The notes: generated by a model from the letters alone, not told the origin. Positions 1-9,361 are shown, counted from the first letter of the whole stretch. The stretch is 62,698 nucleotides of DNA, filler included, from Pseudomonadota bacterium (GCA_043825735.1; 4 parts of 4 records of this genome joined end to end with filler, not necessarily neighbours in it); one strand, 5' to 3'. Translations and numbers: made by a program.

Positions 1-79
1 TGTGTTGCGCAGTACTTCCTATTTGACGTTTCGTTGGCGAGTAGGGGTTATTCACCCCCATTTTAGCACTAAACGTCAA

Positions 80-206
80 GTGGCCTCATTACGGCGATCA
101 CAAGGTGGCTCGATTGCGCCGATCATCAGGTGGCCTCATTGCGGCGATCACAGGGTGGCTCGTTTACGGCGATCACGGAATGGCTCTATAGCGCCGATCA
201 CTAACA
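80..206. mobile_element. IS21-family-like element end with five 25-bp subterminal repeats
   Basis: Five tandem 25-bp units (GTGGCYY...RCGSCGATCA) at 80, 105, 130, 155 and 180, ending ...CACTAACA at 206 (TG..CA terminus). Multiple subterminal repeats are typical of IS21. No transposase in the window. Confidence 0.65.
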
Positions 207-679: not shown

Positions 680-1576
680 TCAGTTCGGCAGTTCCCAAAA
701 CCAAATTTCTTTCGCTCTGCTAAACGAATAGCCCGACCCGGTCAGAGCTCCGTCCCACACGTCAATGTGGTCTCCGGATAACCGCAAGGTACTCAGTCGG
801 AAGTCTGCGTCGCGGAAAAAGATCACTCCCTTATGCCCCCCGAGCTTGGCTCGAGCCGTGTGCCAATCATCGTATCGTTTCATTTGATGCCAATCCCTAG
901 CCAATCGATCAGCGAGTTGCTGTGCCTGCACATAGAACCGCTCCAGTACCTCTGTGCCACGAAAAGCCGGTTCGATAATGTTAGTGTCAATGTCTGCAAG
1001 ACTCTTTTCTTTCAATTTCGGGTCTGGCCGCAAATCAAGGGCTGCACTAAGTACCACAGCACACCGCGCACGAAAGTGCTCTTTGCTTGCGAACAATGTC
1101 TCTGCGAACTTACGTTTCTCTTGATAAGCTTCTGAAACATCGCGAAATAATGGATTGTCTAATTCTTTTTTTAAACTTTCCCGGACTTCCTCTTGATTTT
1201 CTTGATTATCGAGCTCTTCCTTCAAGTAATTTCGGGTTTCACCTTGCATCTCTCTATCGTCGATCATATCCTTCAAGCGATTCCTGCCGCCCTCTTGCTT
1301 CTTTTCAAGCTCCTCCTTGCTGCGCAATCCCTCATCCATCTTTTCCTTCAGCTTTTCCCTGAACTCCTTTTGCCTTTTCTCTTTATCTTCTAGCGACTCG
1401 CCGGGTGTTGGACAACCTCCGGGGCCACACCTGAAACACTCTTCATTACAATAACAGGGCGGATTTGGCTCGCATACGCCCCTTACAGAAGAAATTTCCG
1501 CATGGATTTGCCATGGACAAAGGGCTGAACACAATACCGTTACAATGACTGTCTCGAAAAACCGTAAAACATTCAT
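680..1576 (-). CDS. Secreted protein with C-terminal Tae4-like (papain/NlpC-P60 fold) peptidoglycan amidase domain
   Basis: Signal peptide, Cys-rich segment, charged coiled coil, then RCAVVLSAAL ... KGVIFF ... GDHIDVWDG ... IWFWEL, matching the Tae4 Cys/His motifs. Confidence 0.65.
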   Translation of the reverse strand: MNVLRFFETVIVTVLCSALCPWQIHAEISSVRGVCEPNPPCYCNEECFRCGPGGCPTPGESLEDKEKRQKEFREKLKEKMDEGLRSKEELEKKQEGGRNRLKDMIDDREMQGETRNYLKEELDNQENQEEVRESLKKELDNPLFRDVSEAYQEKRKFAETLFASKEHFRARCAVVLSAALDLRPDPKLKEKSLADIDTNIIEPAFRGTEVLERFYVQAQQLADRLARDWHQMKRYDDWHTARAKLGGHKGVIFFRDADFRLSTLRLSGDHIDVWDGALTGSGYSFSRAKEIWFWELPN

Positions 1577-1605
1577 GGTTTTTTAAACCATCGATATTAT
1601 GAACG

Positions 1606-2037
1606 TTACTTTAGCTTATCATCCGGCACATCAACGCGGTATGATTTCCCCGATTTCCATTTCGTTGGGCAGACGCCGCATATTTTTGTACACCTTGTTT
1701 GAGTGTCTAAAAATTCTTTTTCAGTTAAGTTTATCTTCTTATCTTCCGACGAAGGATAGGTTTCCTTACATTCAATCAGCGTCGATCCGGCCTCTTCCCG
1801 TGACATACATTCAAAAATTCTGCATATCACACAAGCTTCAGGGTATACCCTACATTGCACAGATATTCTGTCGCCAATGTTCATATGACAATCACCATCC
1901 ATGGATGGAAAAAGCGAATCGCGGTACCTGCTGTCTTCACAACTTGCGGGGTAATTCATAATCTCTAACGCATACCCAGAGCTTGTAATGAAGGCAATCG
2001 TGGCAAACACTATTAAAGATACAGTCAGTAATCGCAT
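1606..2037 (-). CDS. Cys-rich exported hypothetical protein
   Basis: AGGAGG RBS, signal peptide, about 10 Cys; 29 bp upstream of the amidase gene. Confidence 0.7.
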   Translation of the reverse strand: MRLLTVSLIVFATIAFITSSGYALEIMNYPASCEDSRYRDSLFPSMDGDCHMNIGDRISVQCRVYPEACVICRIFECMSREEAGSTLIECKETYPSSEDKKINLTEKEFLDTQTRCTKICGVCPTKWKSGKSYRVDVPDDKLK

Positions 2038-2303
2038 TTACTGCACCTCCTTTTTCAATACAATGCCTATAATTCTGGTTTTCAACTCACATAATACGCA
2101 ATTGTTCCAAAGATTATAGGACCAATATGATTTTTCAAATATCATTCGTAATAATTTATTTGGAGTATTTGTCATTGCATCAAAGTCCACCGACTTTACT
2201 GTAAACGCCACCCGGCCAAATTTGATTACATGTTTATAGATCCTCGTCGTTTCGAAATTTCTATAGATGAGAACTGATTTAAATATTCATCCGTCATTCG
2301 AAA

Positions 2304-2348
2304 GCACCGCCAATTGCAGAATGATAGGCGTAGTGTGCAGGTTGTAAC
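2304..2348 (-). repeat. Conserved post-attC element, copy D (partial)
   Basis: GTTACAA...CGCCTATCATTCTGCAATTGGCGGTGC, shared with copies at 5427, 7464 and 8488. Confidence 0.85.
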
Positions 2349-2427
2349 GTCTGGGTTAAGCTGAAGCCGAGAACAGCGAGGGAATTTGGCCGTATGCCAA
2401 ATTTTCAGCTTGACCCCTTTGTTATCC
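2342..2427 (-). other. Integron attC site (86 bp)
   Basis: R'' GGATAAC overlaps the stop codon; GGGTCAAGCTGA / TCAGCTTAACCC stem; R' GTTACAA. Confidence 0.85.
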
Positions 2428-3186
2428 TTTTGCTTGCTTTCTTATAGAATAAGGGTTTGCAGCTTGGGAAAACTGAAAATCAATTTTTTCAACCTCGAAA
2501 AGGTAGCAGTTGACTAACCGAGCTGCTTCAACGTTAAATAACGCTACGTTGTGTCCTTTTCCCAATAGGCTCTTGTAAATAATCCCGTCAAATCCATTTG
2601 TTTTAAATAATTCTGCTATAATTTGTGTTGGAACATAATCCGCATTCCGATCAGTGTTTGTTGTCGGTCTTGAAAAAGCTTGGTCAATATGCGACCAAAC
2701 AGCTTGTTCTCTTTCTTCTGGAATCGGCTCTTCAATGTATATCGGAGTTAAATTTTGGTGCAATGAACAATCAATTAATTTCTGCCTTTTTGTAATTTTG
2801 AATTGCCCAAGCGAAACAAATGTTCCTAACCATGGCCGCACTTCCGCCATGGCTGTATTTTTGTCATTCCCTAAATATAAATAAGGAATGCCTTTTGGAT
2901 TTACTCTACCTTCTTCAGCCTCATATTTCAGGGGGAGCATTCTTTCTGGTGGGTAGGGGGATGGTTCGTCAGCAATATGTTCATATTCGTGTAAAATTGG
3001 ACGCCAGGAATGCCCGAGCTGCGCCCTCCATAAATATTTATCTTGTGGCAGGTCAACGATCCTACTTGTGCATGTCGACAGAACAGTATCTAAAAACTGA
3101 TTAATCTCAGGCGAGCGGAAATATCTATTTTCTTTCCTTACAATGCTTTCAAATTTCCAATAGTCTTGCCATGATACAAATTGCAT
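2422..3186 (-). CDS. RES-domain (NAD+-consuming) protein, gene cassette
   Basis: GRVNPKGIPYLY, TAMAEVRP and YVPTQ...GFDGIIYKS motifs; cassette starts GTTATCC (3205-3211) and ends GGATAAC. Confidence 0.85.
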   Translation of the reverse strand: MQFVSWQDYWKFESIVRKENRYFRSPEINQFLDTVLSTCTSRIVDLPQDKYLWRAQLGHSWRPILHEYEHIADEPSPYPPERMLPLKYEAEEGRVNPKGIPYLYLGNDKNTAMAEVRPWLGTFVSLGQFKITKRQKLIDCSLHQNLTPIYIEEPIPEEREQAVWSHIDQAFSRPTTNTDRNADYVPTQIIAELFKTNGFDGIIYKSLLGKGHNVALFNVEAARLVNCYLFEVEKIDFQFSQAANPYSIRKQAKG

Positions 3187-3204
3187 GATTAATAATTCTT
3201 TATA

Positions 3205-3232
3205 GGATAACGTTCATTTTTATTAGAGGTCG
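3205..3232 (-). other. attI-like cassette entry site
   Basis: CCTCTAATAAAAATGAAC|GTTATCC; the core is the complement of the cassette's inverse core, and no attC stem lies upstream. Confidence 0.55.
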
Positions 3233-3427
3233 TGTTCAATTAATTTTGGGCCAACGTCAAACTGATTCGGTTTATTCCATACGAGGGCTATTTGCCAGGT
3301 TACTATATCGCCCTGATTCGCCTCCGGCTGCACAATAATTGGCGTAGTACCTCGGCAAATTCGGGAACTGAGAAGAGGGAAATGTATTAGCCTTTTCCAG
3401 CCGACTCTCCAACGACTTATCAGGTGA

Positions 3428-4144
3428 CTATAATTCGTGAAGCCTAGGAATATGATCGTTAGATTTTATATCATTATGCATGACAATATCATAAATTGCA
3501 GTGTTATAATCGGATATTAACGCCAAAAGAAGTTCAAAGTCAAAAAACCGAATTAGTTTCCCATCCTCGAAGAGATACGGTTTCCCTCTGTATTCTATGG
3601 TTTGATTTTGCCTATTGGGTGGGCTATAAACTCCATTTGTATGAATTGTGTTTCTTATTAGCCTGTGAAATGTAAAAATGCGTTTATATTGTTTTCTATC
3701 AAGCTGATTTAAAGTATAATCACAGATGCTGCTGAAATTTGCCCGTCCAGAATTACATGCGTCAGGATCTATTGAAATGACTAAGCTTCTAAAAAGCTCT
3801 TCAGTAATTGTGAAGGTAATATTTGATGTCCCGAAGAGAATAATTGCGAAAAACTCCTTAATATGTCCTGAAATATGGTTTTCATTGAATTCTGCAGTTT
3901 TCGATCGCCACCAGTCTGGAAAACAAAGTTGATCTCGCGTAAAAATAAACGATGTCTGAGCAACTTGTAGGACTTTTTTAGCCCCAGTAAACCAAGCCCA
4001 TCTAACATCGTTTTCTTGTTCCCAAGCAGGGAACTCCTTTCTTATATTTGATATGCTGACTCTTATTTCATCTTTAACTTTTTCGCTTGGGTTTAGTCGA
4101 GAGTCTGCCAATTGACTCCAATATTGCATATTCATAATCTTCAC
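3428..4144 (-). CDS. Hypothetical protein, possible HEPN-like domain
   Basis: 238-aa AT-rich ORF; IRNTIHTNG resembles the HEPN RNxxxH motif but is one residue shorter. Confidence 0.55.
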   Translation of the reverse strand: MKIMNMQYWSQLADSRLNPSEKVKDEIRVSISNIRKEFPAWEQENDVRWAWFTGAKKVLQVAQTSFIFTRDQLCFPDWWRSKTAEFNENHISGHIKEFFAIILFGTSNITFTITEELFRSLVISIDPDACNSGRANFSSICDYTLNQLDRKQYKRIFTFHRLIRNTIHTNGVYSPPNRQNQTIEYRGKPYLFEDGKLIRFFDFELLLALISDYNTAIYDIVMHNDIKSNDHIPRLHEL

Positions 4145-4215
4145 CTATCCCATACGCATACACCGTTATCAATTCTAATATCTAATTATTAGACGCTATA
4201 AGATATGTATCAACG

Positions 4216-5271
4216 TCACCCACGGGTATCCCATTTACCAGCCCTTATTTCTTTAATTCTTTCCAATACAAATTCCGCATACTTTCGGTGATCATCTTTT
4301 TCTAAATGGACCTCAATGAACCTTTTAAAATTCTCCTCTGCCCTATCTAACAGTTCTAATTCAGCATAGATCAACCCCAAATTATACAGGCTCATTTTCG
4401 ATATTTCTTCTTCGTCATTCTTGGTGCGTTCTAAGGCTTTTTCATAAAAAACAGCAGCTTCCGGCAATGCATTAGCCTTAAATTTAAGTTGTCCGTAATA
4501 TATATATACTTCCGGATTTCTTGGCTCAATTTCAATAGCTCTTTTTGCATAATATTCAACCTTATCATCGTTTTCACTCTTTAAATATACTTCAGCAGCA
4601 GCCATACATGATCTCGAGAATTCTTCCACATAATTTAATCCTTCGATAATCTTTACTGCGCCATCGATATCGCCACTATCCTTTAATCCATTAGCCTCTT
4701 GTATTTTCTTTTCAAATTCACTGGGATTGAATCCGTAAAAACCTTTTTTTACTATATACTTTCTTTCATCATTCAAAGTTATTGAATCCAGCGATCCCCA
4801 TTCAGCGCGCCACTCAAAAAAAGGTGGGCTGAAATCACCAGAATAGTCAGGCATCTCAACATTCAAGCCACGAACTTTAGATAGTGCTTTAAAGTATTCC
4901 TGCATTCTTTGTATTGCTGCTCTCTTTTTCGCCTCTAATTCTACGCTACTCTTGGCTTTTAAACCTTTCATTTCATTAAAAACAACTCGCGTGAAGCTAT
5001 CCAGGTCTGACTTTAATATTTCGGTATTAATATTAGTTTTCTTTGCGCTTTCTTTTGTCTCTTCCATGCTTTTTGAAATCTTCGACTGCTCAATATGGTC
5101 GACAATAATTATTCCGATATTTATAATAAATATTAAAACCAGAAAATACAAAATGACGGAAGTTATATTGTGCCCAGCACTTGTTTTGACTTGGTTAATG
5201 TTATCTCTGTATATTTGTAACACAGATAGAGTTAATCCAACAAGCGTTGCTACAATTTTAAGATATAACAT
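4216..5271 (-). CDS. Membrane-anchored TPR protein
   Basis: Two N-terminal hydrophobic helices; C-terminal TPR-like repeats (AKRAIEIEPRNPEVY, YNLGLIYAEL). Confidence 0.75.
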   Translation of the reverse strand: MLYLKIVATLVGLTLSVLQIYRDNINQVKTSAGHNITSVILYFLVLIFIINIGIIIVDHIEQSKISKSMEETKESAKKTNINTEILKSDLDSFTRVVFNEMKGLKAKSSVELEAKKRAAIQRMQEYFKALSKVRGLNVEMPDYSGDFSPPFFEWRAEWGSLDSITLNDERKYIVKKGFYGFNPSEFEKKIQEANGLKDSGDIDGAVKIIEGLNYVEEFSRSCMAAAEVYLKSENDDKVEYYAKRAIEIEPRNPEVYIYYGQLKFKANALPEAAVFYEKALERTKNDEEEISKMSLYNLGLIYAELELLDRAEENFKRFIEVHLEKDDHRKYAEFVLERIKEIRAGKWDTRG

Positions 5272-5426
5272 ATTTAGAGCCCATATTTTAGGTAGCTATG
5301 ACAACCTCAACATTTATACTTCCTCACACATATTTAAAATGTTTAGGATGCCCATAATTCCATCCCAATTATTTCCTCGTGTGGCATTTTACTGAAGCCC
5401 GAAGGTGGTTCTCGGTCTTGAATACA

Positions 5427-5508
5427 GCAGAATGTTTGCCATGTTCCTCTATCAACCTGACGCACCCCCATTTGCAGAATGATAGGCGTATAGGGCGCGG
5501 TTTGTAAC
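5427..5508 (-). repeat. Conserved post-attC element, copy C
   Basis: GTTACAA...CGCCTATCATTCTGCAAATGGGGGTGCGTCAGGTTGATAGAGGAACATGGCAAACATTCTGC. Confidence 0.9.
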
Positions 5509-5564
5509 GTGAAGTTGAGGGGCGGTGCGCTTTTGTGCCGCCCCGCTCGAACGTAAGGTTAGAC
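5502..5564 (-). other. Integron attC site (63 bp)
   Basis: GTCTAAC-CTTAC-GTTCGAGCGGGGCGG...CCGCCCCTCAAC-TTCAC-GTTACAA; classic R''/L''/L'/R' layout with an extrahelical base. Confidence 0.92.
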
Positions 5565-5867
5565 ATGGCTACCAGAACCAATTGCAGCATTTGGCACAAC
5601 ATTTGTGATGCCAGCCTCTTTTACTATCTGGCCGACAATAGTGCCCGATATATTAAGCTCACCACCTTTGTTGATTGCATCACCAGATACCATACCCGGA
5701 ATATTTGCGACGCCACCAGGTTCTACAATCAGATTTTTGGATACCATCCCATGTAGATGTAAAACGCCGCCGTTTTTAACTATGGCATTACCAGTAATCA
5801 TTCCGTGCAACTTTAATTCAGAGGAGATTTCAATATCACCTTCTAACTTTCCGTGTTCAGTGTTCAT
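5559..5867 (-). CDS. Small beta-helix (bactofilin-like) protein, gene cassette
   Basis: Repeated LxGMVxGNxxV motifs; AAGGAG RBS; stop codon inside R''. Confidence 0.7.
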   Translation of the reverse strand: MNTEHGKLEGDIEISSELKLHGMITGNAIVKNGGVLHLHGMVSKNLIVEPGGVANIPGMVSGDAINKGGELNISGTIVGQIVKEAGITNVVPNAAIGSGSHV

Positions 5868-5888
5868 TTGCTCTCCTTGATGATTAAT

Positions 5889-5954
5889 GTCTATCGGCCA
5901 GCTTAAGCGGCGCGGCGCAATTTGCCGCGCCCGTTCTTAAAGCTGTTGTTTTGC
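5889..5954 (-). other. attC site with both cores mutated (66 bp)
   Basis: GCAAAAC (expected GCATAAC) ... CAGCTTTAAG-GGGCGCGGC / GCCGCGCC-CTTAAGCTG ... GATAGAC (expected GTTAGAC). Confidence 0.8.
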
Positions 5955-7097
5955 TATTTTTTTAACCATTTCTATTACTTTAGGCAAATTGATTTCAAAC
6001 CCCTTTCCCTTGTACGGCTTTAGTTTAATCAAATCATCAAAAAAACTAACCCCATCCGATTCCTTCTCTTTTTCTACAACCTTTACAAGGGAGCCAACCA
6101 AAACATTTGTGTTGTAATCTTTTAAAGTAACAATATGGTCTTGCTGGACTAAGATTGTTGCCTCTGCTAACCTGAGCTGAGATTTCAGGTGGTGTATCGC
6201 AGCTTCCATACGCTGAAACTTAATTTGATTTTCGACGCCAGTCGAAATAGGTTCAATTTGTGAGTTGTGTAAGGCTGGAATTGTTAAAAATATTGAAAAC
6301 GCCTGACTAATTCTTTCTATAGCTTCGTTTTTATCTTTAGGCGCCACCGAAAAAAGTATTTCTTTCCCTTTTCGATTTATTTCCGTATCTGTTTCTATAC
6401 CAATATCTGATAAAAATTGCCCGAAATAACCTAAGTATTGTTCACACTCATGTTTTAAGTGATCTGGAAAAATAAATTGCGCTTTGAACGGATATTCATA
6501 AAAGATGTTCCTTATATTATCTAATGCCTTTTGATGTAACTCATTTGCCCTTGGCAATAAGGAATTGTAAAGATCCCTAATTTTGAAACTCTCACTGGGC
6601 TTATGGCAAAGGTAAATGGCTGAGTATTCGTCCTGCAAATCTTCCTCATATTCATTAAACATAGAATATTCATCAGTTTTATGCAGTCTTTTAAGCTCAT
6701 CAAATAGAGCCTTAATGCTCCAATTATATGGCCATTCAAAATGGCTATACCAAACCCTAAACCCAATACCTTCCCTGTAGAGCTTTATTACATCGATATT
6801 TCTTTCACTCTCAGGGTTTTCTACGGAAAGAACCGTATTGCCTGGTATATCGGTAATGTTGAAATCCAAAAAATCGTTTAAGGACAATCTCCCTGTTTCA
6901 ATTATTTCAAGTGGCTTTTCCCCTGGCCAGTTATTCCAAATTGTTTTCGACTTAATTTTGGGAAGAATATCACCAACCAATTCGTAATAAAGATGAATGT
7001 TTTCAATCTTTCTGTTCCCAAGGATAAGATTGACATTAACAAAAGTTTGCGCCTCTTTGAGATCTCTTTCCCCATCCAATTCTAATTTTATCATCAT
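5937..7097 (-). CDS. Hypothetical protein, gene cassette
   Basis: AT-rich ORF of about 386 aa beginning after core GTTATGC (7109-7115); start placed at ATG 7097. Confidence 0.75.
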   Translation of the reverse strand: MMIKLELDGERDLKEAQTFVNVNLILGNRKIENIHLYYELVGDILPKIKSKTIWNNWPGEKPLEIIETGRLSLNDFLDFNITDIPGNTVLSVENPESERNIDVIKLYREGIGFRVWYSHFEWPYNWSIKALFDELKRLHKTDEYSMFNEYEEDLQDEYSAIYLCHKPSESFKIRDLYNSLLPRANELHQKALDNIRNIFYEYPFKAQFIFPDHLKHECEQYLGYFGQFLSDIGIETDTEINRKGKEILFSVAPKDKNEAIERISQAFSIFLTIPALHNSQIEPISTGVENQIKFQRMEAAIHHLKSQLRLAEATILVQQDHIVTLKDYNTNVLVGSLVKVVEKEKESDGVSFFDDLIKLKPYKGKGFEINLPKVIEMVKKIAKQQL

Positions 7098-7108
7098 GTT
7101 TTCTCTAA

Positions 7109-7130
7109 GCATAACAGTTATTAGACGGCA
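7109..7130 (-). other. attI-like cassette entry site
   Basis: TGCCGTCTAATAACT|GTTATGC, with no attC palindrome upstream. Confidence 0.6.
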
Positions 7131-7463
7131 ATCGCCATGTAGTTCGGAAACCTAAGTCGAAAAACTAACCGAACCGATATGAAATCAATCGGTTACGATT
7201 ACGGCCCTTATCGGGTTAGGCGGTGATTGCCGCCGGTCTCAGTTTAGGCCGCAAACACTTGATCGTTGACCGCTTAACTTCGGCGTGACGATGGCAGAAG
7301 CTGTAAAATTGGCTTATAAAAACGAGCAATTGGGTAGCGTTCTGATTATTTAAATTTTCTGCCGCAAAGTCGACGTATTTAGGATTGTTTTAAACTCAAC
7401 CCACTAATATCCCATAGTGGCATTTCTGCTTAGATCCGTGAGTCGTCTCCGGACTTGTAAACC

Positions 7464-7542
7464 GCAGAATATTTGCCATGTTCCTCTTTCAACCTGTTGA
7501 ACCGCCAATTGCAGAATGATAGGCGGAATGCGCGATTGTAAC
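7464..7542 (-). repeat. Conserved post-attC element, copy B
   Basis: GTTACAA...CGCCTATCATTCTGCAATTGGCGGTTCAACAGGTTGAAAGAGGAACATGGCAAATATTCTGC. Confidence 0.9.
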
Positions 7543-7583
7543 GCTGAGCTGAGGGGGCGGGCAACTTCACCCTAAAGCCTTCA
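7536..7583 (-). other. Deleted-cassette remnant (right half of an attC only)
   Basis: ...GCCCGCCCCCTCAGCTCAGCGTTACAA resembles L'/R'; only about 40 bp separate it from the previous attC. Confidence 0.6.
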
Positions 7584-7642
7584 AAATAACGTTTGAGCTG
7601 TTGGGCGCGGCTTTTTGCGTCCCCACCAGCGATATGTTAAGT
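7584..7642 (-). other. Integron attC site (59 bp)
   Basis: ACTTAAC-ATATC-GCTGGTGGGGACGC...GCGCCCAACAGC-TCAAAC-GTTATTT. Confidence 0.9.
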
Positions 7643-8374
7643 AGCCTTTTTATATATTTCAGCTTCGTAATCAACTTTTGGATCCAAACAATAATATACA
7701 AATGGTTTGGCTAATTCAGTTGTTTTGTAAACAGCGCTTTTGGTGATAGGATCGTCAGACATACCCATGGGTTTTACCAACCCCACATTAGACAGTGAAG
7801 AATACAAAACGACTAATTCTTTCCAACGAATATTTGCTGGGGCGCCACAAGATTCTTGGATTTCACCTGCAGGCACAACTTTATTCACTAATTCATGAAG
7901 GTTTAATTCCTCATCACCCATTACAACGGAAAAATCGTATAGATCCAAATCATTATGGGCAATATGCGATAAAAATTCTTCAATATGACCTGAAGGGAGC
8001 GATTCAAAAACTTTTAAAACCGCTTCTTCAATCACGTTGCTTTTCCCTGGGCTCTTAAGTCGATGCCGAATAAAGTTCCTTATTCGATTCAATTTTTCCC
8101 TTGGCTCGTTTTTGAAAATCGACAGGCATAATTGAGAAATTCCTCCCCGGAATATTGAATCGTTTAGCAAACTTTCTATAGGAACCTTTAAATCTTGAAT
8201 ATCTTTTTCAATGGATTTGATGATTTCATTAAATTTTTTCGTGTTATCTGCCTGAATAGCAGCCGTAAGGGTGCTTGAAATTGCTGGCCCAACAATCGGC
8301 ACGACGCCTACGATGGTTGATGTAAATGCCTTGACTGCTTCTTTGCCTGGAGAGGATAGTTTTATATTACTCAT
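7637..8374 (-). CDS. Hypothetical protein, gene cassette
   Basis: 245-aa ORF bounded by core GTTAAGT (8403-8409) and inverse core ACTTAAC containing the stop. Confidence 0.8.
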   Translation of the reverse strand: MSNIKLSSPGKEAVKAFTSTIVGVVPIVGPAISSTLTAAIQADNTKKFNEIIKSIEKDIQDLKVPIESLLNDSIFRGGISQLCLSIFKNEPREKLNRIRNFIRHRLKSPGKSNVIEEAVLKVFESLPSGHIEEFLSHIAHNDLDLYDFSVVMGDEELNLHELVNKVVPAGEIQESCGAPANIRWKELVVLYSSLSNVGLVKPMGMSDDPITKSAVYKTTELAKPFVYYCLDPKVDYEAEIYKKAT

Positions 8375-8402
8375 TTTTCCGACACAATCATATTGCTAAA
8401 GC

Positions 8403-8427
8403 ACTTAACATTCATATTAATAGACTT
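8403..8427 (-). other. attI-like cassette entry site
   Basis: AAGTCTATTAATATGAAT|GTTAAGT. Confidence 0.55.
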
Positions 8428-8487
8428 CTCATTCGACATGGATTAGGCCGACGTCGGCCTAATTCTGTAGCAATTGTCATGAGGGTT

Positions 8488-8559
8488 GTTTGCCATGTTC
8501 CTCTTTCAACCTGGTGCACCGCCAATTGCAGACTGATATGCGTAATGCACTGGTTTAAC
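8488..8559 (-). repeat. Conserved post-attC element, copy A
   Basis: GTTAAAC...CGCATATCAGTCTGCAATTGGCGGTGCACCAGGTTGAAAGAGGAACATGGCAAAC. Confidence 0.88.
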
Positions 8560-8612
8560 GCATTTCACAGTGGCAGCGGAACCGAGCTCGCTGAAGGCTG
8601 AATCGGTTATGA
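8553..8612 (-). other. Degenerate attC-like site (60 bp)
   Basis: TCATAAC at the stop codon and GTTAAAC 60 bp away; internal symmetry is weak. Confidence 0.45.
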
Positions 8613-9053
8613 TTTCTGCAATTTCAAAGTGACTGAATCGAGCAGGTATCTGGTCGGGATGATCGGAAAGCCCCCTTCTATTCCGGCCCTTAACCATTCT
8701 GAAATCTGGTCGACATATTTTTGATCTACGGCATAGAGCGACACCAGGAATAGATCAGACGCTCCGCCTTCATATATGTTTGTTCTGAACTGGACGTTTG
8801 GTTGGATCCACGGGAGTTTCGGCCAGCAGAGGCGGAGTTCTTCGACGTCGACCGCCATAATTACCTTGTACCCTTCCGGGATCCTGCTTGTCTTGCCGAC
8901 GATGGTGAAAGTGCGCGGGACAGATGTGCCGGCGGCTGGAGAGGTGATTTGCCCCCAAGGGGCATTTGGATCTTTTTTATCCGATAGCTTTGAATAGACA
9001 GCGGTACCGGTGCCCCTCAATGTTCTTAAATCCGAATTTGTTGATTTCGTCAA
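8607..9053 (-). CDS. Hypothetical protein with Ig-like strand pattern (possibly 5'-truncated)
   Basis: QITSPAAGTSVPRTFTIVG motif; TTG start uncertain. Confidence 0.55.
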   Translation of the reverse strand: MTKSTNSDLRTLRGTGTAVYSKLSDKKDPNAPWGQITSPAAGTSVPRTFTIVGKTSRIPEGYKVIMAVDVEELRLCWPKLPWIQPNVQFRTNIYEGGASDLFLVSLYAVDQKYVDQISEWLRAGIEGGFPIIPTRYLLDSVTLKLQKS

Positions 9054-9285: not shown

Positions 9286-9361
9286 TGGTGCCGAGGGACA
9301 GAATCGAACTGCCGACACGGGGATTTTCAGTCCCCTGCTCTACCGACTGAGCTACCTCGGC
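9286..9361 (-). tRNA. tRNA-Phe(GAA)
   Basis: GCCGAGGTAGCTCAGTCGGTAGAGCAGGGGACTGAAAATCCCC...GTTCGATTC...CTCGGCACCA, 76 nt. Confidence 0.98.

What the first reader, a model, noticed from the sequence alone, without database searches (positions are those of the whole stretch)
2304..8559. The same non-coding element follows the attC crossover four times
Seen: directly after R' GTT at 8559, 7542, 5508 and 2348 comes one conserved sequence, GTTACAA-N~12-CGCCTATCATTCTGCAATTGGCGGT, continued in three copies by CAGGTTGAAAGAGGAACATGGCAAA. A degenerate fifth copy (17/20 match) is at 3329-3348, and copies B and C stay similar for roughly 130 bp. In ordinary arrays the DNA after each attC is an unrelated cassette. 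The element has a -10-like TATCAT and an AGAGGA-ATG start, but the frames after ATGGCAAA diverge or stop quickly, so it does not encode a conserved protein. Inference: it is a repeated ORF-less promoter cassette, a structured RNA, or the 3' conserved segment of a mini-integron unit repeated in tandem. This is my best candidate for an undescribed system.
Basis: partly seen in the sequence, partly recalled or inferred. Interest (0 to 1): 0.85.

Follow-up and report, generated by a model that had tools for sequence, protein, structure and literature searches.

The report
Reused non-coding leader heading integron cassettes
A roughly 65-base non-coding sequence that opens several integron gene cassettes also sits in front of ordinary chromosomal genes in the same bacterium, so it looks like a reused expression leader rather than a part of the recombination site.

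Summary
The repeat is real. Four good copies and one decayed copy lie on the minus strand of the window, four of them starting right after an attC-type GTT.

It is not tied to attC. The whole genome holds 13 copies. Five or six follow attC-like sites. Six lie in plain chromosomal DNA, three of them upstream of PAS/Cys-motif sensor genes.

All 13 copies point at a same-strand ORF. In 11 that ORF starts 153-408 nt downstream.

The core shows no conserved fold, no covariation and no Rfam match. A 1-nt indel breaks any frame through it.

The only relatives found elsewhere are 2 copies in a Desulfobacterales MAG and 1 in a same-genus genome.

In two chromosomal copies the element continues a separate ~175-nt repeat, "U", that follows signalling genes.

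Best reading, about 45%: a portable promoter-proximal leader (TATCAT, AGAGGAA-ATG) reused in front of unrelated genes. In cassettes the attC R' box (GTTACA) stands where a -35 would be. Transcription was not shown. The structured-RNA and mini-integron readings are rejected.

The parts
8480..8559 (-). Copy A: GTTAAAC, 14-nt spacer and core (CGCATATCAG...AGAGGAACATGGCAAAC).
   Evidence: nhmmer E 6.8e-21; pattern matches.
8387..8482 (-). Type-A tail of copy A: perfect palindrome ATTAGGCCGAC/GTCGGCCTAAT, then GTCTATTAATATGAATGTTA. A 22-codon small ORF here ends in an ATGA overlap with the start of ORF 7637-8374.
   Evidence: The tail also occurs at C115, C90, C112 and C79; palindrome; small-ORF overlap; no consensus fold.
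7463..7542 (-). Copy B: GTTACAA, spacer and core.
   Evidence: nhmmer E 7e-21.
7190..7475 (-). Type-B tail: 286 nt shared at 81% with C115:69053-69338, where the 5' half of the core is missing.
   Evidence: blastn; sequence view.
5427..5508 (-). Copy C: GTTACAA, 17-nt spacer and core.
   Evidence: nhmmer E 1.4e-20. The scan reports GTTACA-N18-TATCAT as promoter-like.
3282..3351 (-). Decayed copy E, type A. SD and ATG are lost and no foldable attC lies upstream.
   Evidence: nhmmer E 2.4e-7; Infernal E 4.6e-14; upstream fold z -0.02.
2268..2348 (-). Copy D: GTTACAA, spacer and the 5' half of the core only. Homology ends after TTGGCGGTGC.
   Evidence: nhmmer E 2.4e-16; alignment; GTTACA-N16-TATCAT promoter-like hit.
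2342..2427 (-). attC-like site after ORF 2422-3186 (RES domain).
   Evidence: DNA fold -17.9 kcal/mol, z -5.39, ends paired; also recovered by an independent scan.
5502..5565 (-). attC-like site after ORF 5559-5867; the stop codon lies in GTCTAAC.
   Evidence: Fold -11.8 kcal/mol, z -1.98.
7536..7643 (-). Long attC-like site after ORF 7637-8374; the stop codon lies in ACTTAAC.
   Evidence: Sequence; fold no better than shuffles, z -0.05.
8553..8612 (-). Weak attC-like site after ORF 8607-9053; the stop codon lies in TCATAAC.
   Evidence: Fold z -0.70.
680..9053 (-). Co-oriented ORFs headed by the copies: 8607-9053, 7637-8374, 5937-7112, 5559-5867, 4216-5271 (TPR), 3428-4144, 2422-3186 (RES), 1606-2037, 680-1576 (Tae4-like).
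   Evidence: ORF list; Pfam.
9289..9361 (-). tRNA gene next to the start of the cassette cluster. No integrase or attI lies between them.
   Evidence: Rfam; sequence; integrase search.

Best explanation
The element is a lineage-specific, reused cis-regulatory leader. It has a short spacer, a ~65-nt unstructured core that begins with CGCCTATCAT (a TATCAT -10-like box), and AGAGGAA-N2-ATG, a ribosome-binding-site-like start of a short, unconserved ORF. It stands in front of unrelated genes and always points at them. In chromosomal copies, other conserved upstream DNA precedes it: module U, or a 395-nt shared region. In cassettes that DNA is replaced by the attC, and the attC R' box (GTTACA) lies 15-18 nt before TATCAT, where a -35 box would be. 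On this reading each cassette carries its own start of expression and does not depend on a distant integron promoter. Shown: the repeat, its copy number, its orientation and distance to ORFs, its mosaic borders, and its lack of fold and of coding capacity. Inferred: promoter and leader function. Not shown: any transcript or protein binding.
For: There are 13 copies in the genome, all co-oriented with a downstream ORF. In 11 of 13 an ORF of at least 143 aa starts 153-408 nt after the anchor. The downstream genes whose products I read or scanned fall in different families or match none. Three of the 12 Cys-motif sensor genes found by a strict pattern have a copy upstream, which suggests a native regulatory role. 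The core has no consensus structure (-2.4 kcal/mol forward, -0.36 reverse). Eleven copies fold with z from -0.93 to +1.44 against mononucleotide shuffles, which suits an open leader or a DNA signal. A 1-nt indel in TTGAA(T)AGAGG rules out coding through the core. The start triplet of ATGGCAAA is ATG in 10, GTG in 1 and TTG in 1 of the 12 genome copies that keep the core's 3' half; it reads CTG in the 12th, decayed copy. The scan calls GTTACA-N16/18-TATCAT promoter-like at 2348 and 5508. U-linked copies read TTGAAT/TTGAAA/TTGTAT-N17-TAT... at the same place (by eye). The tRNA gene beside the cluster has TTGACA-N16-TATATA, so ordinary sigma-70-type boxes occur in this genome (by eye). Diverged copies are kept in two other genomes, one upstream of what reads by eye as a Phd/YefM-type antitoxin gene. 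Precedents: gene-less Vibrio cassettes have sense promoter activity (PMC11014356, abstract and section list read), and similar promoters are reused in front of different genes (PMC3575422, abstract in the search listing).
Against: There is no expression evidence. Promoter-like hits in 2200-8700 are no more frequent than in shuffles (21 found against 18.9 +/- 3.9). The spacer from GTTACA to TATCAT varies from 14 to 18 nt, and the box is TATCAG in copy A. The -35 position is poorly conserved among U copies (alignment). Related modules behind U have TATGGA/TATGAA, which lack the T that usually ends a -10 box. A promoter alone does not explain about 50 conserved bases downstream of TATCAT. The G018:C96 copy and the decayed copy have lost both SD and ATG. 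The Vibrio paper has a section titled to say that such promoters cannot be identified in silico (PMC11014356, section list only).
Confidence: 0.45

Rival explanations
1. Recombination scar or extended recombination site. The conserved 25 nt after GTT (ACAAACCGCGCATTC-CGCCTATCAT) belong to what the integron integrase needs or prefers. One version is an accessory flank of attC in the circular cassette. The other is a secondary GTT site at the edge of a host module, through which chromosomal units were captured as cassettes.
For: In G000 seven junctions carry GTT (GCT in one) plus this spacer plus CGCCTATCAT, and three different sequences follow: the core in 5, a hairpin module at C6:32032, and another at C90:64194. 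G018:C96 has the same layout after a good attC. G018:C8 has GTT plus a like spacer, but its upstream DNA does not fold as an attC. Homology to chromosomal copies stops at or near the GTT. Some U copies read GGTTGAAT (= GTTRRRY) at the matching position. Type-A units also end at GTTA, where homology stops.
Against: Six of 13 copies have no attC. The spacer resembles the end of U only weakly: 8.47 of 20 matches against 7.5 in controls. No left-hand junction (left part of U, then GTT, then a cassette) was found. By eye, nothing resembling the element lies in the DNA printed next to the two integrase genes. All attC sites here were found through the element, so the '7 of 7' count is circular. My independent attC scan was insensitive.
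Confidence: 0.15
2. Operator region without a promoter of its own. The core is a set of protein-binding sites, for instance for the PAS/Cys-motif sensor proteins or a response regulator, and so ties the downstream genes, cassettes included, to one sensory regulon.
For: Three of 12 Cys-motif genes have the core upstream and 5 of 12 have U downstream. Of 14 U copies, 5 follow Cys-motif genes and 5 follow genes whose C-termini look like receiver domains by eye. Neither core nor U has an RNA fold. The core holds loosely repeated ATCAnnnTG(n)AAT-like units about 20 nt apart (by eye).
Against: No DNA-binding role is known for the Cys-motif domain: Pfam and NCBIfam find only PAS, and the Atlas gives hypothetical proteins only. 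The internal repeats are weak and their spacing is not a helical multiple.
Confidence: 0.13
3. Neutral or selfish repeat. On this reading the sequence has been copied with neighbouring DNA by duplication and recombination, or is a MITE-like mobile repeat, and has no function.
For: It is nearly confined to one genome. Its borders are mosaic, and there are recent long duplications: 456 nt at 93% between C112 and C11.
Against: There are no terminal inverted repeats. All 13 copies have the same orientation towards an ORF. Copies in three genomes keep the same blocks at 60-75% identity. No transposase is associated with it.
Confidence: 0.15
4. Translation leader only. Transcription comes from upstream, and the element supplies an open ribosome landing site and short upstream ORFs that are coupled to the cargo gene.
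For: AGAGGAA-N2-ATG/GTG/TTG is kept in 11 of the 12 genome copies that keep the core's 3' half. The core is unstructured. In type-A copies a second small ORF (MNV...) ends in an ATGA overlap with the main start at C59_8537 and C115, and overlaps the main start by 23 nt at C90. By eye, most cargo genes lack a strong SD (upstream strings).
Against: The first small ORF stops about 70-310 nt before the main start in the 9 copies where both are defined (C115, 93 nt, to C59_7520, 283 nt). Peptides are not conserved and the frames differ between copies. The palindrome region is read in two frames.
Confidence: 0.09
5. Structured cis-regulatory RNA or small RNA.
For: Variable hairpins follow the core in some copies.
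Against: There is no consensus structure in the core or the type-A unit on either strand. Only 1 of 13 predicted pairs has a double change. z-scores are near 0. There is no Rfam match even at E up to 5.
Confidence: 0.03

Closest known systems
Promoter-carrying gene-less cassettes of Vibrio sedentary chromosomal integrons (Blanco et al. 2024, PMC11014356; abstract and section list read)
   Same: Non-coding DNA inside a cassette array, in the sense orientation, proposed to switch on cassettes far from the integron promoter.
   Different: Here the module is the 5' part of gene-bearing cassettes, not a cassette of its own: I found no attC between it and the gene. The same sequence recurs in 4-5 neighbouring cassettes. 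It also occurs upstream of non-cassette chromosomal genes. Promoter activity is untested here.
Promoter reuse / putative mobile promoters (Nijveen, Matus-Garcia, van Passel 2012, PMC3575422; abstract in the search listing only)
   Same: Highly similar upstream regions in front of non-homologous genes within one genome.
   Different: Some copies here start exactly at an integron crossover site, which suggests a route of spread. I did not read that paper's criteria in full.
attC sites and their conserved flanks, such as the repeats of chromosomal integrons (recalled knowledge)
   Same: A repeated sequence at every cassette border.
   Different: The element lies after the R' crossover, so by the usual definition it belongs to the next cassette. 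It does not fold, and it also occurs without any attC.
Leader-peptide and translational-coupling leaders of class 1 integron cassettes, such as the attI1 short ORF (recalled knowledge, not checked in a paper)
   Same: A short ORF with a good SD ahead of cassette genes with poor ribosome-binding sites.
   Different: The first small ORF ends far from the cargo start. Coupling is seen only for a second small ORF, in 2-3 type-A copies.

Membership tests
Integron cassette array (attC sites) | Imperfect palindrome bounded by R'' (..AAC) and R' (GTT....), foldable as a single strand, directly after a gene | tested here: met
   Met for 2342-2427 (z -5.4) and 5502-5565 (z -2.0). Plausible for 7536-7643. 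Weak for 8553-8612. Stop codons lie in the R'' boxes.
Integron cassette array (attC sites) | Integron integrase and attI next to the array | tested here: not met
   No TIGR02249 match on C59. The two full matches are on C139 and C64. The cluster is therefore attC sites without an integrase, next to a tRNA gene.
The element as part of attC | Always adjoins an attC and takes part in its fold | tested here: not met
   Six of 13 copies have no attC upstream. There is no consensus fold in the core or the type-A unit.
Gene-less promoter cassette | A cassette without an ORF, bounded by its own attC | tested here: not met
   No foldable attC lies between the element and the next ORF. The type-A tail has no consensus structure. 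Homology does end at a GTTA, which remains unexplained.
Gene-less promoter cassette | Measured promoter activity | not testable with these tools
   No run that holds this stretch was listed: the three RNA runs listed, added from the same study, hold next to none of its words. No reads were laid.
Structured cis-regulatory RNA / riboswitch / sRNA | Conserved secondary structure with covariation, or an Rfam model match | tested here: not met
   RNAalifold gives -2.4 kcal/mol with a covariation term of +0.9, and 1 of 13 pairs has a double change. Reverse strand -0.36; z -0.93 to +1.44. No Rfam hit.
Sigma-70-type promoter | -35 and -10 hexamers 16-18 nt apart, kept across copies | tested here: inconclusive
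   The TATCAT-type box is kept in most copies, and GTTACA-N16/18 is found at two. The spacer runs 14-18 nt, the -35 is not conserved, and scan hits do not exceed shuffles.
Sigma-54 promoter | GG-N10-GC (TGGCAC-N5-TTGC) kept across copies | tested here: not met
   By eye on alignment A1, TGGCAAATATTCTGC fits at C59_7520 and C59_5483 only. In type-C copies the GC lies 2 nt too close, and type-A copies lack it.
MITE / insertion-sequence end | Terminal inverted repeats, target duplications, both orientations | tested here: not met
   No terminal inverted repeats. All 13 copies are co-oriented with the next ORF. Target duplications were not assessed.
Protein-coding gene or conserved leader peptide | An open frame kept across copies, conserved at protein level | tested here: not met
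   A 1-nt indel lies inside the core. Small ORFs of 9-43 codons have unrelated sequences and shifted frames.
Reused promoter region | Similar upstream DNA before non-homologous genes, same orientation | tested here: met
   Thirteen copies; the downstream products I read or scanned fall in different families or match none. That the DNA acts as a promoter is not tested.

The most novel reading that the evidence does not exclude
The shared border at the attC crossover is a footprint of how cassettes are made. In this reading the integron integrase recombines an attC with a GTT at the edge of a host regulatory module. That cuts out chromosomal units of leader plus gene as new cassettes, which arrive with their own expression signals. 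Three different modules (the core, a hairpin module and a third) each occur both behind an attC GTT with the same 25-nt lead-in and, for two of them, behind host module U. This would mean several independent captures.
Probability: 0.12. Interest if true: 0.85.

Novelty: new variant of a known kind. Interest (0 to 1): 0.5.

Why it matters
Cassettes far from the integron promoter are usually thought to be silent unless a promoter happens to lie nearby. Here one and the same leader heads 4-5 neighbouring cassettes and also heads host genes, sensor genes among them. If it drives expression, these cassettes are expressed on their own and may be tied to a host sensory regulon. The exact border at the crossover site also gives a concrete, testable case for the open question of how cassettes acquire their 5' ends. 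If it proves to be only duplicated DNA, it is a minor lineage-specific repeat.

Tried and rejected
- **RNA evidence.** No run that holds this stretch was listed: the three RNA runs listed, added from the same study, hold next to none of its words. I laid no reads.
- **Collection scans.**
  - The first genome contigs pattern gave 4 loci, all chance.
  - The second gave 16 loci with 1 real one, the Desulfobacterales MAG.
  - The metagenome pattern gave 22 loci, none real; 18 belong to one unrelated repeat of a single assembly.
  - Plasmids and phages gave no match.
- **Weakest model hits.** The three weakest Infernal hits (E 0.005-0.009 in G084, G122, G011) look unrelated by eye.
- **attC census.** Three home-made scans failed.
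  - The first found none of the known sites.
  - The second recovered parts of 2 of 7 among 2063 raw hits.
  - The third gave 1791 raw and 157 filtered candidates and recovered 2 known sites.
  - A MAFFT alignment of 7 attC sites was too poor for a covariance model.
  - The number of attC sites in the genome is therefore unknown.
- **Sigma-54, sigma-32 and ECF readings.** I considered these by eye. The fits hold in only a few copies or at the wrong spacing.
- **Type-A tail as a hidden attC.** No consensus fold on either strand.
- **Module U as RNA or as coding.** The consensus structure is empty on both strands. By eye on the sequences, the only long frame through U is closed by a TGA in most copies.
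- **attI origin.** By eye, nothing like the element lies in the DNA printed next to either integrase gene.
- **Rfam on the modules behind U.** Only terminator-like chance hits.
Full report
**1. What is in the window**

On the minus strand, four good copies of one non-coding sequence begin just after GTT triplets whose G lies at 8559, 7542, 5508 and 2348.
- The 25-mer CGCCTATCATTCTGCAATTGGCGGT matches 4 times at up to 3 mismatches; none was expected in shuffles.
- Its continuation, CAGGTTGAAAGAGGAACATGGCAAA, matches 3 times.
- A profile search adds the decayed copy at 3351-3282 and shows that the copy at 2346-2268 keeps only its 5' half.

The ORFs between the copies all lie on the minus strand. 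Pfam finds RES, TPR and Tae4-like domains in three of them and nothing in the rest.

The sites before the GTTs vary in quality as attC sites:
- 2342-2427: fold z -5.4, good.
- 5502-5565: fold z -2.0, good.
- 7536-7643: plausible.
- 8553-8612: weak.

The cluster starts beside a tRNA gene and has no integrase. Only bases 1-24252 of the window belong to this contig, C59.

**2. The element is not bound to attC**

The genome (6.8 Mb, 160 contigs) holds 13 copies: C59 x5, C112 x4, C11 x2, C115 x1, C90 x1 (the same 13 by Infernal).

| Context | Copies |
|---|---|
| attC-like site directly upstream | four C59 copies, the C115 copy |
| ambiguous: a GTT, but no foldable attC | C59_3339, C90_62565 |
| plain chromosomal DNA | C112 x4, C11 x2 |

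The chromosomal copies stand upstream of these genes:
- three PAS or membrane proteins ending in a Cys motif (GLLPICxxCKKIRDDxGYWNQIE...C..C);
- an operon whose products read by eye like a small heat-shock protein and a carbohydrate-binding module;
- a membrane transporter-like protein;
- a 626-aa membrane protein.

By a strict pattern the genome has 12 such Cys-motif genes, and 3 of them have the element upstream.

All 13 copies point at a same-strand ORF. In 11 an ORF of at least 143 aa starts 153-408 nt after the anchor; in the other two the first such ORF lies about 750-1100 nt away.

**3. Anatomy**

The part shared by all copies runs from about -6 to +57 around the ATCAT anchor. Its consensus is CGCCTATCATTCTGCAATTGGCGGTGCATCAGGTTGA(A/T)AGAGGAACATGGCAAACAGTCCTC, with 82% mean column identity. 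Beyond that the copies are mosaic.
- **Type A tail** (to about +140): a palindrome, then GTCTATTAAATATGAATGTTA. It is found in six copies and partly at C79.
- **Type B tail:** 286 nt shared with C115:69053, a place that lacks the 5' half of the core.
- **Type C:** two copies share 456 nt, from -395 to +60, at 93%.
- **Upstream, attC-linked copies:** these share a spacer, ACAAACCGCGCATTC.
- **Upstream, C112_53985 and C112_42020:** these continue a separate repeat, module U.

**4. Module U**

U is about 175 nt and has 18 profile hits in the genome, 14 of them strong.
- It begins about 140-165 nt after the stop codon of an upstream co-oriented gene in 9 of the 14 strong copies. That gene is a Cys-motif gene in 5 of the 14. 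In another 5 it ends in what looks by eye like a receiver domain.
- It ends in ...GACAACGCCTAT.
- Different short modules follow it: the core described here; a two-hairpin module (ATCATTGGTCTATGCC...); or an sRNA-like module, with a terminator in one G000 copy and in its G018 counterpart.
- It has no consensus fold on either strand.
- It also occurs in G018 (4 places) and G042 (1 place).
- The hairpin module and a further module also occur directly after attC sites, with the same GTT-spacer-CGCCTATCAT lead-in, at C6:32032 and C90:64194.
- The spacer resembles the end of U only weakly: 8.47 of 20 matches against 7.5 in controls and at most 7.98 in 200 shuffles.

**5. What the core is not**

- **Not a structured RNA.** RNAalifold gives -2.4 kcal/mol with a positive covariation term, and 1 of 13 pairs has a double change. 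The reverse strand gives -0.36, and single copies fold like shuffles. Rfam finds nothing even at E up to 5.
- **Not coding.** A 1-nt indel lies inside the core. The ORFs opening at its ATG are 9-43 codons long with unrelated sequences, and the palindrome region is read in two frames.
- **Not MITE-like.** It has no terminal inverted repeats and only one orientation.
- **Not a mini-integron segment.** The integrases lie on other contigs, and by eye neither an array nor anything like the element lies in the DNA printed next to them.

**6. Distribution**

- BLAST over 61 related genomes found it only in G000 and G018.
- A sequence-only Infernal model over 151 genomes of the order found 13 copies in G000, 2 in G018 and 1 in the same-genus G001; three weak hits look unrelated.
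- Of the G018 copies, C96 follows a good attC. C8 follows GTT plus a like spacer, but its upstream DNA does not fold as an attC.
- The G001 copy stands upstream of what reads by eye as a Phd/YefM-type antitoxin gene.
- Pattern scans of genome contigs and metagenomes, and BLAST against plasmids and phages, added nothing.
- The record title of the one outside hit places the lineage in Desulfobacterales.

**7. Most likely function**

The orientation, the distance to ORFs, the lack of fold, the TATCAT box and the SD-like AGAGGAA before ATG together point to a promoter-proximal leader reused in front of unrelated genes.
- In cassettes the R' box GTTACA lies 15-18 nt before TATCAT; the scan lists two such pairs.
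- In U-linked copies TTGAAT-type hexamers lie 17 nt before the same TAT (by eye).
- In type-A copies a second small ORF (MNV...) overlaps the cargo start: by ATGA at C59_8537 and C115, and by 23 nt at C90. This suggests translational coupling.

All of this is inference. Promoter-like hits are not enriched over shuffles, the -35 is not conserved, and no transcript data exist. I put this reading at about 45%.

**8. Rivals**

- A recombination-related role for the 25-nt lead-in.
- An operator for the sensor proteins.
- A neutral repeat.
- A pure translation leader.

The recombination reading carries the boldest version. The same lead-in joins attC to three different modules, two of which also follow U. 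This would fit repeated integrase action at one GTT at the edge of a host module, and so the capture of host units as cassettes. Against it: the spacer-U similarity is weak, no left-hand junction was found, and my attC census failed. Every attC counted here was found through the element.

**9. Comparison and verdict**

The closest known things are promoter-carrying gene-less cassettes in Vibrio (PMC11014356) and reused promoters (PMC3575422).
- This case differs from the first in that it is the head of gene-bearing cassettes and is shared with non-cassette genes.
- It differs from the second in that it starts exactly at an integron crossover.
- My two literature searches were narrow. They do not show that such an element is unreported.

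The 'attC-coupled undescribed system' is only partly supported. Function remains to be shown.

Noticed in passing
G000 contigs C112 (42016-42190, 45573-45743, 72150-72323, 80058-80231, 53981-54100), C37:9190-9360, C144:563-736, C11:744-915, C107:103853-104025, C80:6076-6242, C40:24758-24929, C69, C89, C4; also G018 (L096, L099, L100, L103): Module U: a ~175-nt non-coding repeat with 14 strong copies and no RNA fold. It starts about 140-165 nt after the stop codon of an upstream gene in 9 of the 14, mostly a signalling gene, and ends in GACAACGCCTAT. Different short modules follow it. It is kept in a second genus. No Rfam match was found in the three U-bearing stretches scanned.
   Followed up: partly
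G000, 12 genes, for example C112:80203-80970 (-), C11:905-3652 (-), C112:47237-48250 (-): A C-terminal Cys-motif domain (GLLPICxxCKKIRDDxGYWNQIExYI..HS.A.FSHxICxxC) ends PAS or membrane sensor proteins. Pfam and NCBIfam see only the PAS part. The Atlas lists only hypothetical-protein clusters, commonest in Thermodesulfobacteriota. It is strongly linked to U (5 of 12) and to the core (3 of 12).
   Followed up: partly
G000 C112:45480-45573 (-) and G018 L100: An sRNA-like unit behind U, about 90 nt long and ending in a GC-rich hairpin plus a T-run. It is conserved between the two genomes, with base changes in the upper part and loop of the terminator hairpin. Related units at C11:742, C112:72150, C144:737, C40:24758 and C6:30120 begin alike (TATG..AGTATTCC). 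Only terminator-like chance hits appear in Rfam.
   Followed up: partly
G000 C80:6233-6320, C6:32032-32120, C4:74799, C107:103853, C69:58089, C9:123866, C15:21378: A two-hairpin module (CGCCTATCATTGGTCTATGCC...ATAGACCAAT...CATTCC..GGTGCAC...GTGCATC). It is found both behind U and behind an attC; the C80 and C6 copies are 93% alike over 88 nt. GTGCAC/GTGCAT motifs also lie next to both integron integrase genes.
   Followed up: no
window 7130-7245 (-) and C115:69250-69400: Inside the type-B tail, about 95 nt are flanked by inverted CGGCAATC(A/G)CC arms, with GCCTAAC / GGTTAG-like boxes inside. It resembles a small or broken attC and is conserved at both loci.
   Followed up: no
window 5890-5945 (-): A strong palindrome (AGCTTTAAGAACGGGCGCGGC...GCGCCGCGCCGCTTAAGCT) lies between ORFs 5937-7112 and 5559-5867. 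It has no GTT box and is not followed by the element. It may be a terminator or a decayed attC.
   Followed up: no
window 76-200: A tandem array of 25-nt units (about five copies, 72-88% alike) lies at the contig end beyond the last cassette.
   Followed up: no
G000 C115:69447-73482 and 73752-76900: A single attC plus element separates two gene groups that look like defence genes by eye: a 590-aa ATPase-like protein with a 389-aa partner, then a methyltransferase-like 331-aa protein and a 364-aa protein with an HNH-like end. None was run through Pfam.
   Followed up: no
G000 C58:27701-27805, C68:104116-104220, C86:33577-33681, C129:2845-2903: Another repeat family built of GTTCAACGTTCGATGTTGGAC-type units. 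It turned up as false positives of my attC scan.
   Followed up: no
window 24253-62698: The rest of the window does not lie on contig C59, so the window joins DNA that is not contiguous in the assembly.
   Followed up: no
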